The position numbers and the translations under genes are program-made. The notes under the pieces are model-generated. The model searched no databases, was not told the origin of the DNA, and saw only the letters and a list, made by a program, of their open reading frames with translations. Positions 2,580 through 3,745 of a stretch of 4,288 bases of DNA are shown one piece after another. The DNA lies in the NCBI RefSeq assembly GCF_003334385.1, contig NZ_QOWN01000087.1; one strand, given 5' to 3'. Source of the stretch: Escherichia coli. GTDB taxonomy: Bacteria; Pseudomonadota; Gammaproteobacteria; Enterobacterales; Enterobacteriaceae. The number at the start of each line of letters is the position of its first letter. Position 1 is the first letter of the stretch.

Positions 2580-2972
2580 ATGCGTGATATTCAGATGGTT
2601 CTCGAACGCTGGGGAGCATGGGCGGCAAATAATCATGAGAATGTTAGTTGGTCGCCAATTGCTGCGGGGTTTAAAGGCCTCATCCCCTCAAAAGTAAAAT
2701 TTCGACCGCAATGTTGCGATGATGATGGTCTTATCATTAGTTCAGTTATGGCAGTTCTCAAGAAAAAGGAACCATATCAATACCAATTACTGGAAATGTA
2801 TTATGTATATGGGATCACATTACGAGCGTTAGGGGCGAAAATGGGGATATCGCTTAATCAAGTTGTTATTAGATTGCAGAAAGCTGAAGGGTTTGTTGAA
2901 GGGTGTCTGGCAATGCTCGAGGTATCTTTAGAAATGGATTGCTATATGAATCACGAAAATGATTCAAGATAA
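2580..2972 (+). CDS. Late-gene antitermination protein Q (Phage_antitermQ family, QuuD/Q82-like)
   Basis: ATG 2580 is preceded by GGAG 2569-2572 (7-nt spacer); stop TAA 2970-2972. The ORF track start at 2565 is a TTG and less likely. N-terminus [20 protein letters not shown]... with the WGAW motif and ...RPQCCDDD... matches enterobacterial prophage Q proteins as I recall them. Position (last gene before the cargo/late region) fits. Confidence 0.85.
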
Positions 2973-3038
2973 ATGAACAGTTACTAGTTATATTTTACAG
3001 TAATCTCCTGATGATACACGTTCAGCAGGAGGTTATTT

Positions 3039-3656
3039 ATGAATGAAAATGTAAGACACATATTGCTGGATGCAATTGAAAATAAGAAATCTTTAACGGT
3101 AATTTACTTAGGAGGTAGTCAGCCAGGAACATTGAGAGATATATCTCCGATAAGCATATCAGAAGATAAACTTAGGGCAAGATGCCATAGTACTGATGCT
3201 GTAAAGTTTTTTAATATTGGGAAAATACAACTACCTAGTGACTCGTCCATGATAACTGTGCCATATGGAAGTTTAGAGCTTAAAGTTTATGAGACGATGC
3301 AGAGTGTGTATGAGGACTTTCATAGCCTGTATCCGGAAGGTCGATGGGGAGTTGAATTTAATGATCATGAATTTGCTCTATTTGATTTTTTCAAAAATGG
3401 AAAAAGAAAAAAAACAGCATTTATGGCAATTCAGTTTATGGAAAGACATGAGGATGAAACAAGAACGGAGATAACAATTGATGTCAGTCTATCAGGTGTT
3501 GTGATTTCGGAGGGAGCCAGAACACCTAAAAGACGTCCGTGGGTTGTGACTGGTCCCGGGCGTGGAGAGCTAAGAACTTATTCAACGTTAGACAAAGCTG
3601 CTACAGAGTTTTTTAAGCGACTTTCATTGATGGTATCTATGGCGATTGAAACATAA
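3039..3656 (+). CDS. Hypothetical protein, 205 aa; AT-rich cargo (moron) gene downstream of Q; function unknown, possible N-terminal WYL/SH3-like beta-barrel
   Basis: ATG 3039 is preceded by a strong SD AGGAGG (3027-3032) with a 6-nt spacer; stop TAA 3654-3656. Hand-counted GC on sampled 60-nt lines is about 23-48%, against about 50-55% in the nin genes. An intrinsic terminator follows at 3746-3767. The N-terminal pattern LTVIYLGG..GTLRDISPISI..KLRARCH..VKFFNIGKIQL resembles WYL-domain beta-strand spacing (low-confidence inference). No catalytic motif recognised. Confidence 0.7.
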   Translation: MNENVRHILLDAIENKKSLTVIYLGGSQPGTLRDISPISISEDKLRARCHSTDAVKFFNIGKIQLPSDSSMITVPYGSLELKVYETMQSVYEDFHSLYPEGRWGVEFNDHEFALFDFFKNGKRKKTAFMAIQFMERHEDETRTEITIDVSLSGVVISEGARTPKRRPWVVTGPGRGELRTYSTLDKAATEFFKRLSLMVSMAIET

Positions 3657-3745
3657 GGGATATAAAGATACCGAGGAAATGATTTGTGTTATAACAAAAA
3701 CCATCTTAATCTGTTAAGAGTGGTCACTCCGTCATACAGCTTAAA

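What the first reader, a model, noticed from the sequence alone, without database searches (positions are those of the whole stretch)
2640..3745. Compositional mosaic boundary beginning inside the Q gene
Seen in sequence (hand counts on sampled 60-nt lines): about 55% GC in the DUF968 gene, about 50% at the Q 5' end, about 42-45% across the middle and 3' part of Q with one stretch near 30% (2761-2820), then low GC through the cargo ORF, returning to about 50% by 3900. Inference: the recombination joint that brought in the cargo lies within or just 5' of the Q C-terminal half. Q C-terminal regions determine qut/promoter specificity, so the Q specificity domain and the downstream module may have been acquired together.
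Basis: partly seen in the sequence, partly recalled or inferred. Interest (0 to 1): 0.42.

Follow-up and report, generated by a model that had tools for sequence, protein, structure and literature searches.

The report
Swappable Q-antiterminator cassette carrying cargo gene
The drop in G+C that begins inside this prophage's Q gene is real and marks a swappable block in which the DNA-reading part of the late-gene switch protein Q, a hitch-hiking accessory gene and Q's predicted docking site at the late promoter travel together; this is ordinary phage mosaicism, but it exposes a widespread 'cargo slot' between Q and its promoter.

Summary
G+C falls from 55.5% (DUF968 gene) to 37% (Q 3' part, cargo) and recovers to about 48-50%.

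The low-GC block matches a homology block. Q codons 1-16 and the DUF968 gene are shared with prophages that carry other Q types. Divergence starts at nt 2629, with a second joint near nt 2724-2740. Shared sequence resumes at 3712 (TGTTAAGAGTGGTCAC).

The block holds:
- the class-specific body of a Q21/Q933W-family antiterminator;
- a 205-aa HTH-less WYL-fold protein;
- a palindrome, TTGTGTTATAACAAAA, at -35..-20 of the predicted late promoter PR'.

Across 144 loci the Q recognition helix and this palindrome co-vary in 11 classes with no discordant pair, although 33 different cargo families sit between them. One of these is nmpC in E. coli K-12 DLP12.

In E. coli this Q type is found without an intact WYL gene in at most 2 of 74 genomes, and the one of those examined has an IS5 inside the gene. 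In Klebsiella and Cedecea the same Q/palindrome pair flanks other genes.

However, the latest exchange used the conserved flanks (2506-2537 and 3818-3880), not a joint inside Q.

Q binding to the palindrome is inferred, not shown.

The parts
1567..2562 (+). DUF968/HNH-like gene. It forms the conserved left recombination arm (55.5% G+C).
   Evidence: phrog_96 E 1.7e-175. 93-99% identical in all six E. coli loci, whatever their Q type. Patchwork of L001-like and L003-like SNP tracts across 2152-2505.
2506..2537 (.). Interval containing the most recent left crossover. The window is 100% identical to UPEC 26-1 from 2506 to 3880.
   Evidence: Informative-site analysis against L001 and L003.
2580..2627 (+). 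Q codons 1-16 ([16 protein letters not shown]). This N-terminus is conserved across the family and ends the shared left arm.
   Evidence: >90% conserved at most positions among 55 diverse Q proteins. 96% nt identity to L001, which has a different Q class.
2628..2723 (+). Q codons 17-48, the N-segment of the 'NNHE.V.WSP' type. It is shared with the 933W/QuuD classes but not with L001, Klebsiella or Cedecea.
   Evidence: nt identity 0.67-0.83 to 933W and QuuD, against 0.29-0.79 to L001. All four gametes are present. Compositional change point after 2626.
2724..2972 (+). Q codons 49-130, the class-defining body (37% G+C). It contains the sigma-R4-like helix-turn-helix.
   Evidence: PF06530 E 5.7e-49 and Sigma70_r4 over residues 67-102. 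Homology to Q21, 6jnx/6p18, E 1.4e-8. Identity to other classes is 0.25-0.5 here.
2844..2894 (+). Predicted recognition helix [17 protein letters not shown] (residues 89-105).
   Evidence: Identical in the E. coli alleles A and B, Klebsiella and Cedecea. Codons 89-96 are 88-92% nt-identical to those genera, against 42-75% over codons 17-48. Co-varies with the downstream palindrome.
2999..3037 (+). Hairpin in the Q-cargo spacer that pairs the cargo ribosome-binding site (GGAGG) with an upstream CUCC.
   Evidence: RNAfold -17.7 kcal/mol, z -5.2. The allele B counterpart gives -23.0, z -5.8.
3039..3656 (+). Cargo gene: a 205-aa protein with an N-terminal WYL (Sm-like) fold and a C-terminal alpha/beta domain, without an HTH (37.7% G+C, third-position G+C 0.28).
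3684..3699 (+). Class-specific palindrome TTGTGTTATAACAAAA (10-bp perfect core TGTTATAACA), the predicted Q-binding element. It overlaps the -35 hexamer TTGTGT (3684-3689).
   Evidence: Invariant in E. coli alleles A and B, Klebsiella and Cedecea while the neighbouring bases vary. 45 of 45 evaluable viral-contig sites have the [12 protein letters not shown] upstream. Other Q helix classes carry other palindromes at the same offset.
3707..3712 (+). Predicted PR' -10 hexamer TAATCT.
   Evidence: The hexamer reads TAnTnT across the class-1 loci (TAATCT, TATTCT, TACTCT, TAGTGT); 933W reads TATCAT and L001 CAGTAT, and A2 and T6 are kept in all. It aligns with the pR' -10 annotated in 933W. The consensus scan did not flag it.
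3715..3727 (+). Box TAAGAGTGGTCAC, conserved across the family, containing the predicted PR' start (A3719). It begins the shared right arm.
   Evidence: Present downstream of Q in every class examined. The TSS is placed by homology to the dRNA-seq-mapped PR' of Sakai Sp5 (PMC7547250). Compositional change point after 3717.
3743..3768 (+). Terminator-like hairpin followed by a U-run (tR'-like).
   Evidence: RNAfold stem 3743-3764 followed by U residues. It aligns with a 'possible rho-independent terminator' annotated in 933W. Not called by the scan tool.
3818..3880 (.). Interval containing the most recent right crossover. The window is 100% identical to DETEC-S792 from 3818 to 4288.
3890..4087 (+). 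orf65 (phrog_331), the first gene after the predicted PR' and part of the conserved right arm.
   Evidence: phrog_331 E 2.4e-37. 100% identical to L001, although that locus has a different Q class. A terminator-like site at 4074-4091 follows it.

Best explanation
Nucleotides about 2629-3712 are a specificity cassette of a lambdoid prophage late-gene switch. The cassette has three parts. The first is the class-specific body of a Q21/Q933W-family antiterminator, with its DNA-reading helix [17 protein letters not shown]. The second is an accessory gene for an HTH-less WYL-fold protein. The third is the palindrome TTGTGTTATAACAAAA at -35..-20 of the late promoter PR', which I predict to be the matching Q-binding element. 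On both sides lie sequences shared by prophages with other Q types: on the left the DUF968 gene and Q codons 1-16, on the right TGTTAAGAGTGGTCAC, a terminator-like hairpin and orf65. Homologous recombination in these arms swaps the cassette as a unit. Q only works with its own binding site, so crossovers that separate the two should give dead phages. Whatever lies between Q and its site is therefore carried along, which makes that interval a protected cargo slot. The low G+C (37%, third positions 0.28-0.35) reflects a foreign, lower-GC history shared by this E. coli Q body and the WYL gene. Shown here: the compositional change points, the homology breakpoints, the co-occurrence, the helix/palindrome co-variation and the fold of the cargo. 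Inferred: that the palindrome is bound by Q, that PR' starts at A3719, that selection for matched pairs maintains the linkage, and the function of the cargo.
For: Composition: change points after 2626 and 3717, and a third-position G+C drop from 0.56 to 0.28-0.36. Homology edges fall at the same places. L001 is about 98% identical up to 2628 and diverged from 2629. The cargo is absent there. Alignment resumes at 3695 and is continuous from 3712. Cassette exchange: the window is 100% identical to UPEC 26-1 over 2506-3880 and 100% identical to DETEC-S792 over 3818-4288, and it is 99-100% identical to the latter over 738-2100. Linkage in E. coli: block 2738-3694 occurs in 74 of 5,426 genomes and 72 of them carry it nearly whole. 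The one partial case examined has an IS5 in the cargo. Alleles A and B are only about 78% identical yet have the same layout. Position of PR': the 933W record annotates pR', qut and a terminator at the aligned place. The PR' start site in Sakai Sp5 was mapped by dRNA-seq. It falls on the A of TAAGAGTGG, 22 nt after the Q stop (PMC7547250). Co-variation: 144 loci fall into 11 helix/palindrome classes with no discordant pair, across 33 cargo families and gaps of 8-2,924 bp. Examples are ISLNQV with TGTTATAACA, ISHNHV with TGTAATTACA, SDTCIGK with TTACGATCGTAA, SDGYIGK with TTACGTACGTAA, KKDEKLIRIE with GCGGTCCGC, and CSDGTIRK with GCGTACGC. The palindrome is invariant within a class while adjacent bases vary. 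It does not follow orf65, which is identical between classes. Family knowledge: Q21 reads its binding element with its helix-turn-helix, and that element lies between -35 and -10 (PMC6606751; phage 21 record).
Against: No binding or antitermination data exist for this Q type. The experimentally defined Q21 element is a direct repeat at -27..-12, not a palindrome at -35..-20, so the mode of binding would have to differ. Q and the palindrome are physically linked, and many of the 144 loci are close relatives, so co-variation is partly co-inheritance. The sigma-70 consensus scan did not call the proposed PR'. A G+C decline along Q is generic in the family. The same Q/palindrome pair flanks other genes in Klebsiella and Cedecea, so the cargo and the Q type need not have arrived in one event. 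A Yersinia Q with a near-identical helix ([17 protein letters not shown]) showed no exact motif within 2.5 kb, and this was not resolved.
Confidence: 0.7

Rival explanations
1. This is a plain moron insertion. The WYL gene was inserted on its own just downstream of a Q gene that was already AT-rich. The compositional step inside Q is the gradient that all Q genes of this family show, and no cassette logic is involved.
For: Q genes of nearly all classes, including cargo-less ones, fall from 0.50-0.56 to 0.38-0.49 G+C along their length. The same Q helix and palindrome flank unrelated genes in other genera. 33 cargo families occupy the slot across the family, so insertion and replacement within the slot are frequent.
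Against: The change point at 2626 coincides to within 3 nt with the homology break at 2629. The second step coincides with the break against 933W/QuuD at about 2724. The E. coli class-1 Q body is 0.37-0.39 G+C, like its cargo, whereas the same class is 0.50-0.51 in Klebsiella and Cedecea. Alleles A and B have diverged in parallel across Q, the cargo and the promoter region. The block moved as one 1,375-bp identical tract.
Confidence: 0.17
2. The late promoter lies upstream of the cargo (around 2973-3006, with TACAGT or TAATCT as the -10). The WYL gene would then be the first late gene, or a gene between PR' and tR' expressed constitutively in lysogens. The conserved element at 3684-3727 would be something else.
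For: A TAATCT hexamer also occurs at 3001-3006. The 3' part of the Q-cargo spacer is conserved between alleles A and B. PR' directly follows Q in phage 21 and 933W.
Against: The family-wide promoter layout (palindrome, A-tract, TAnTnT, GT, TAAGAGTGGTYAC, hairpin) is found downstream of the cargo here. It is found downstream of unrelated cargo in 33 contexts, including K-12 nmpC. The -35 region upstream of the cargo is deleted in allele B. The conserved part of the spacer is explained by a hairpin that sequesters the ribosome-binding site.
Confidence: 0.06
3. There was no horizontal origin. The low G+C is maintained by selection, for example for AT-rich DNA that H-NS silences in the lysogen, or by the amino-acid content of Q and the cargo.
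For: Low G+C is common to slot cargo in many classes (0.31-0.41), as expected if the slot is silenced or regulated through AT-rich DNA.
Against: Third-position G+C is what drops (0.28-0.36 against 0.55-0.56). The block is absent from or replaced in close relatives, with sharp homology edges. The same Q class has 0.52-0.55 G+C in other hosts.
Confidence: 0.05

Closest known systems
Mosaic module exchange in lambdoid phages, with the immunity cassettes (imm434, imm21: a repressor plus its own operators) as the classic case. From my own knowledge: Botstein's modular theory, and the HK97/HK022 comparisons of Juhala et al. 2000.
   Same: A specificity protein and its cognate DNA site are exchanged together by recombination in conserved flanking sequence. 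The joints are sharp and can fall inside genes at domain boundaries.
   Different: Here the pair is Q and its predicted binding site at PR'. The two are separated by 0.7 kb or more of unrelated accessory DNA, so a third party is carried inside the cassette.
Q21/Q933W family of antiterminators (Pfam PF06530), with Q21 loading at its QBE in PR' (Shi et al. 2019, PMC6606751; Yin et al. 2019, bioRxiv 10.1101/651190).
   Same: Full-length PF06530 match. Homology to the Q21 crystal and cryo-EM chains. A sigma-R4-like helix-turn-helix in the C-terminal part. A promoter-embedded element upstream of a short leader and a terminator.
   Different: Q21 binds two 8-bp direct repeats at -27..-12, immediately after its own gene. 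Here the candidate element is a palindrome at -35..-20, and it lies 712 bp downstream of the Q stop.
Morons of temperate phages, that is, extra genes of deviant composition inserted between conserved genes (from my own knowledge: Juhala et al. 2000; Hendrix et al. 2000). Examples are the stx genes downstream of tR' in Stx phages and the nmpC/lc porin genes of DLP12 and PA-2.
   Same: The WYL gene is absent from close relatives, is AT-rich and lies in the Q-to-lysis region. K-12 nmpC occupies the same slot.
   Different: The stx genes sit downstream of PR' and tR', inside the late operon, whereas this slot is upstream of PR'. The WYL gene is co-oriented with Q. No consensus promoter or terminator of its own was found.
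WYL-domain regulators DriD, CapW, BrxR and PafBC.

Membership tests
Q21/Q933W antiterminator family (PF06530) | Sequence membership in PF06530 | tested here: met
   Phage_antitermQ i-E 5.7e-49, residues 1-118 against model positions 1-118 of 118. phrog_79 E 3.3e-47.
Q21/Q933W antiterminator family (PF06530) | Homology to the solved Q21 protein and a sigma-R4-like helix-turn-helix in the C-terminal part | tested here: met
   6jnx_P and 6p18_P E 1.4e-8 over residues 8-85. Sigma70_r4 i-E 0.0028 over residues 67-102. The HTH match is weak on its own.
Q21/Q933W antiterminator family (PF06530) | A late promoter with an embedded Q-binding element, a short leader and a terminator downstream of Q | tested here: met
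   By alignment to the annotated 933W pR'/qut/terminator and to the dRNA-seq-mapped Sp5 PR' start. The element lies 712 bp after the Q stop rather than adjacent to it.
Q21/Q933W antiterminator family (PF06530) | A QBE made of two direct 8-bp repeats between -35 and -10, as in phage 21 | tested here: not met
   Phage 21 has ATTGAGCA AATGAGCA at -27..-12. The window has a palindrome at -35..-20 and no direct repeat.
Q21/Q933W antiterminator family (PF06530) | Q-dependent read-through of tR' | not testable with these tools
   Needs reporter or in vitro transcription assays.
Moron (accessory gene of a temperate phage) | Present in some but absent from closely related phages at the same position | tested here: met
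   L001 lacks it between the same flanks. Other genes fill the slot in Klebsiella and Cedecea.
Moron (accessory gene of a temperate phage) | Nucleotide composition different from the neighbouring genes | tested here: met
   0.377 G+C and third-position 0.28, against 0.555 and 0.56 in the DUF968 gene.
Moron (accessory gene of a temperate phage) | Its own promoter and terminator, allowing expression in the lysogen | tested here: inconclusive
   There was no consensus promoter on the + strand in 2500-4288 and no terminator directly after the gene. A weak -10 candidate, TACAGT (TATTAT in allele B), lies at 2995-3000 by eye.
WYL-domain proteins | WYL Sm-like beta-barrel | tested here: met
WYL-domain transcription regulators (DriD/CapW/BrxR type) | N-terminal HTH DNA-binding domain and a WCX C-terminal domain | tested here: not met

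The most novel reading that the evidence does not exclude
In the Q933W branch of the PF06530 family, Q proteins read class-specific palindromes over the -35 region of PR'. This implies a symmetric two-protomer loading mode unlike the tandem mode solved for Q21. The need to keep each Q with its own palindrome turns the interval between them into a protected hitch-hiking slot. That slot has become a general hotspot for accessory and candidate anti-phage genes in enterobacterial lambdoid prophages, with at least 33 cargo families including K-12 nmpC, PDC-S20, an HEC-04-like ATPase next to a putative cytosine methyltransferase ORF, and this WYL protein.
Probability: 0.45. Interest if true: 0.65.

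Novelty: new variant of a known kind. Interest (0 to 1): 0.5.

Why it matters
Q-type antiterminators control the late genes, and in Stx phages the toxin genes, of lambdoid prophages. I found no described binding site for the Q933W-type proteins in the searched literature. The helix/palindrome table gives concrete predictions of which Q works at which promoter. These can be tested by simple promoter swaps, and they are relevant to Q-allele typing of Shiga-toxin strains. This Q type with its WYL gene sits upstream of stx2a in strain RM10042.

The result also revises a textbook picture. In a large share of these prophages, including DLP12 of E. coli K-12, PR' is not next to Q but 0.6-2.9 kb away, with variable accessory genes between. 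If matched-pair selection maintains that slot, it would explain why accessory and defence-like genes accumulate there, and it would give a way to find more of them.

For this window alone the finding is ordinary: a well-behaved mosaic joint with an AT-rich accessory gene.

Tried and rejected
- **Promoter and terminator scan.** The consensus scan over 2500-4288 found no + strand promoter and only the terminator after orf65. It missed both the proposed PR' and the 3743-3768 hairpin, so I relied on comparative evidence instead.
- **BLAST endpoint.** The BLAST endpoint at 2737 against L001 first suggested a single joint at Q codon 53. Mismatch positions showed that high identity ends at 2628 and that the 2629-2737 stretch is only about 60-68% identical.
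- **A functional tie between cargo and Q.** I tested this and rejected it. Distant relatives of the cargo lie next to an HTH_3 gene in an integrative element, or between the integrase and repressor of a Pseudoalteromonas phage, not next to Q.
- **orf65 as the palindrome binder.** Rejected, because orf65 is 100% identical between loci whose palindromes differ.
- **An alternative promoter register.** I considered placing TAAGAG at +2..+7 as in phage 21, which would put the palindrome in the spacer. I rejected it because the implied -10 (CATCTT) does not keep A2 across loci, and because the mapped Sp5 start fits the TAnTnT -10.
- **CII-type paQ site.** The motif TTGYN6TTGY, annotated inside phage 21 Q, gave no match in the window.
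- **The search for related loci.** I used exact DNA-pattern scans of viral contigs instead.
- **Codon-identity profile.** The first profile over all representatives was blurred by mis-called starts. I replaced it with a curated seven-sequence comparison.
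Full report
**What the window is.** The 4,288 bases are the ninR-to-late-promoter part of a lambdoid prophage of E. coli. In order, the window holds:
- the end of a LexA-like gene (1-195);
- rusA (192-587);
- a KilA-N gene (738-1565);
- a DUF968/HNH-like gene (1567-2562);
- a 130-aa antiterminator Q (ATG 2580 to 2972);
- a 205-aa 'cargo' ORF (3039-3656);
- a hairpin with a U-run (3743-3768);
- a 65-aa ORF (3890-4087).

These assignments rest. Q is a full-length member of Pfam PF06530 (i-E 5.7e-49) with a weak sigma region-4 match at residues 67-102. 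It is homologous to the solved Q21 protein (6jnx/6p18, E 1.4e-8). Yin et al. call this the Q21/Q933W family.

**Checking the observation.** G+C is 0.555 in the DUF968 gene, 0.462 in Q 2580-2737, 0.370 in Q 2738-2972, 0.333 in the spacer, 0.377 in the cargo and 0.510 in orf65. Third-position G+C goes 0.56, 0.36, 0.28, 0.545. Likelihood-ratio segmentation gives two change points, after 2626 and after 3717, and neither was matched in 200 permutations. One caveat applies. Q genes of this family lose G+C from 5' to 3' in nearly every member, with or without cargo, so part of the gradient is generic.

**Homology breakpoints.** Some part of the window matches 5,186 of 5,426 complete E. coli genomes, but only 22 genomes match 80% or more of it.
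- *Strain DETEC-S792 (L001)* has the same genes but no cargo. It is about 98% identical up to nt 2628. From 2629 (Q codon 17) the two Q genes are only about 30-70% identical. The cargo is absent. Alignment resumes at 3695, is continuous from 3712, and is 100% identical from 3818 to the end.
- *UPEC 26-1 (L003)* is 100% identical from 2506 to 3880 but differs on both sides.

The window is therefore a recombinant: an L001-like backbone carrying an L003-like block, with the latest crossovers in 2506-2537 and 3818-3880, inside sequence shared by all these prophages. The two compositional change points (2626, 3717) fall within a few bases of the edges of the class-specific DNA (2629, 3712).

**Q is itself a mosaic.**
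- Codons 1-16 ([16 protein letters not shown]) are above 90% conserved at most positions in 55 diverse family members.
- Codons 17-48 are 67-83% (mostly 75-83%) identical at the nucleotide level to 933W Q and to K-12 QuuD, but not to L001, Klebsiella or Cedecea.
- From codon 49 (nt 2724) identity to 933W and QuuD falls to 0.4-0.5.
- The Klebsiella and Cedecea genes become most similar at codons 89-96 (0.88-0.92).

The two N-segment types and the C-terminal classes occur in all four combinations among distinct proteins (5, 12, 3 and 17). Recombination has therefore occurred inside Q, just upstream of the C-terminal 60%. A second joint lies at codon 16/17.

**Where the late promoter is.** In phage 21 the curated record places -35, QBE, -10, the start site, the pause element and the terminator directly after Q. 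In 933W the record annotates a putative pR', qut and a terminator overlapping the end of Q. The 933W sequence TTTACGATCGTAAAAATCTGCATATCATGATAAGAGTGGTTAC, followed by its hairpin, aligns with window 3684-3768, TTGTGTTATAACAAAAACCATCTTAATCTGTTAAGAGTGGTCAC followed by its hairpin. Sy et al. mapped the PR' start in Sakai Sp5 by dRNA-seq and the tR' 3' end 258 nt downstream (PMC7547250). Counting back from the terminator in the Sakai sequence puts the start on the A of TAAGAGTGG, 22 nt after the Q stop. By homology the window's PR' has -35 TTGTGT (3684-3689), -10 TAATCT (3707-3712) and start A3719. This is an inference, and the consensus scan did not flag the site. The cargo therefore lies between Q and PR', not in the late operon.

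**Co-variation of the Q helix with a promoter palindrome.** Q proteins from Klebsiella and Cedecea share the helix [17 protein letters not shown] with the window. They have the same TTGTGTTATAACAAAA-N15-TAAGAGTGGTCAC about 1.1 kb downstream of Q, but with a SocA_Panacea gene or Bro-N genes in between.

I then ran two exact-pattern scans of viral contigs.
- *First scan:* of 48 sites with the palindrome followed by TAAGAGTG, all 45 that could be evaluated have a Q with this helix upstream.
- *Second scan:* TAAGAGTGGTYAC sites yielded 144 loci with a PF06530 Q within 4 kb upstream.

At a fixed offset the roughly 8-14-bp palindrome differs by class and tracks the recognition helix:

| Recognition helix | Palindrome |
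|---|---|
| ISLNQV | TGTTATAACA |
| ISHNHV | TGTAATTACA |
| ISYNTV | TGTCATGACA |
| SDTCIGK (933W) | TTACGATCGTAA |
| SDG(Y/H)IGK (QuuD) | TTACGTACGTAA |
| KK(D/S)EK.IRIE | GCGGTCCGC |
| CSDGTIRK | GCGTACGC |
| CSEGKIR | TTCGTTACGA |

There are 11 pairs and no discordant locus. Within a class the palindrome is invariant while the A-tract, the spacer and the non-critical -10 positions vary. orf65 does not co-vary, being identical between classes. I therefore propose that the palindrome is the Q-binding element. It differs from the Q21 element, which is a direct repeat at -27..-12. Physical linkage also contributes to the association, so this remains a prediction. I found no paper in the library that combines QBE, Shiga toxin and antitermination.

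**A general cargo slot.** The distance from the Q stop to TAAGAG is bimodal: 8-48 bp, or 0.6-2.9 kb. The long gaps hold 33 unrelated sequence families, many on the opposite strand and AT-rich. They include:
- an NmpC/Lc-type porin;
- a KAP-type NTPase matching PADLOC PDC-S20 (E 2.5e-168);
- an ATPase matching HEC-04 (2e-36), next to an ORF that looks like a cytosine methyltransferase (by eye, not scanned);
- a PDC-M53A-like protein.

In E. coli K-12 DLP12, quuD is separated from GGTTTACGTACGTAAAAAATTGGTTATGCTGTTAAGAGTGGTTAC and essD by nmpC::IS5. I found no report of this slot as a hotspot in the searched papers.

**Linkage in E. coli.** The block 2738-3694 occurs in 74 of 5,426 genomes. 72 of them carry 80% or more of it: 22 at 95% identity or higher (allele A) and about 50 at about 78% (allele B, the S88 type). 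The one partial case examined has an IS5 inside the cargo. IS1 and IS5 insertions in the cargo also occur in viral contigs. This Q type has no close relative in the phage collection; the best tblastn hit is 60-62% aa identity. The cargo has none in E. coli phages there.

Its function is unknown. My best guess, at low confidence, is an accessory ligand-sensing protein with a defence or counter-defence role. It would be co-transcribed with Q on induction, because it is co-oriented with Q, sits 66 bp downstream and has a strong GGAGG site. A conserved hairpin (2999-3037; -17.7 kcal/mol, z -5.2; allele B -23.0, z -5.8) pairs that site with an upstream CUCC, which suggests translational control.

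**Verdict.**
- The compositional boundary is real and coincides with true mosaic joints.
- It needs three corrections. There are two nested joints (2628/2629 and about 2724-2740). The most recent exchange used the conserved flanks. The cargo is a passenger in a slot bounded by Q and its predicted site, not a partner of the Q type.
- As a phenomenon this is a known kind, lambdoid mosaicism with an AT-rich accessory gene. The Q-slot-PR' layout and the helix/palindrome code make it a variant worth testing.

Noticed in passing
window 2999-3037 (and L002 about 5983-6031): A strong hairpin in the Q-cargo spacer pairs the cargo's GGAGG ribosome-binding site with an upstream CUCC (-17.7 kcal/mol, z -5.2; allele B -23.0, z -5.8), although the two alleles are only about 78% identical. 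A weak -10 candidate (TACAGT, or TATTAT in allele B, at 2995-3000) would start transcripts inside the 5' arm and so free the binding site. The hairpin is also followed by a U-rich run.
   Followed up: partly
L006 (E. coli O43 RM10042) 3843-8183: The same Q type with the WYL gene (99% identical) lies upstream of orf65, a DNA methyltransferase, three tRNAs and stx2a. Several other genomes with this allele come from Shiga-toxin-strain collections. This Q type has no close match in the phage collection (best 60-62% aa), so PCR typing for q933 or q21 may miss it.
   Followed up: partly
L005 4500-5480; viral contigs L057 and L115: The WYL gene is interrupted by IS5 (ISKpn26-like) or preceded by IS1 in some genomes. 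This accounts for at least one of the two partial hits in the E. coli survey.
   Followed up: yes
L253 (E. coli K-12 MG1655 DLP12) 957-4614: quuD and its predicted promoter element (GGTTTACGTACGTAAAAAATTGGTTATGCTGTTAAGAGTGGTTAC at 4195-4238, followed by a hairpin) are separated by nmpC::IS5 on the opposite strand. essD follows 160 bp later. The K-12 porin pseudogene therefore sits in the same slot.
   Followed up: yes
viral contigs L138-L251, between Q and TAAGAGTGGTYAC: The slot holds at least 33 unrelated cargo families, mostly AT-rich and often on the opposite strand. They include matches to the PADLOC candidates PDC-S20 (E 2.5e-168), HEC-04 (2e-36; the neighbouring ORF looks like a cytosine methyltransferase, by eye only) and PDC-M53A (1e-31). 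Several two-gene sets with membrane proteins are also present.
   Followed up: partly
window 588-737: This is a second AT-rich stretch (38% G+C) between rusA and the KilA-N gene. In UPEC 26-1 the two genes are 20 bp apart and the KilA-N gene is only 81% identical. This is probably another mosaic joint.
   Followed up: no
window 2152-2505: The 3' third of the DUF968 gene is a patchwork of short tracts that match L003 or L001 alternately, mostly at third codon positions. This suggests repeated gene-conversion-like exchange in the left arm.
   Followed up: partly
window 3890-4100: orf65 (phrog_331) is the first ORF after the predicted PR' in all E. coli loci examined. It looks like a small winged-helix protein and is followed by a terminator-like hairpin (4074-4091 plus a T-run). 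Whether it lies before or after the effective tR' is unclear.
   Followed up: no
window 4242-4288: A partial Rfam match to the sRNA STnc100 (30.2 bits, E 7e-4, model positions 1-47 of 206) is cut off by the end of the window and is below the gathering score.
   Followed up: no
L016 (Yersinia) 2501-5363: A Q with the near-identical helix [17 protein letters not shown] has no exact GTTATAAC motif within 2.5 kb downstream. Its promoter element is either a variant or lies further away.
   Followed up: no
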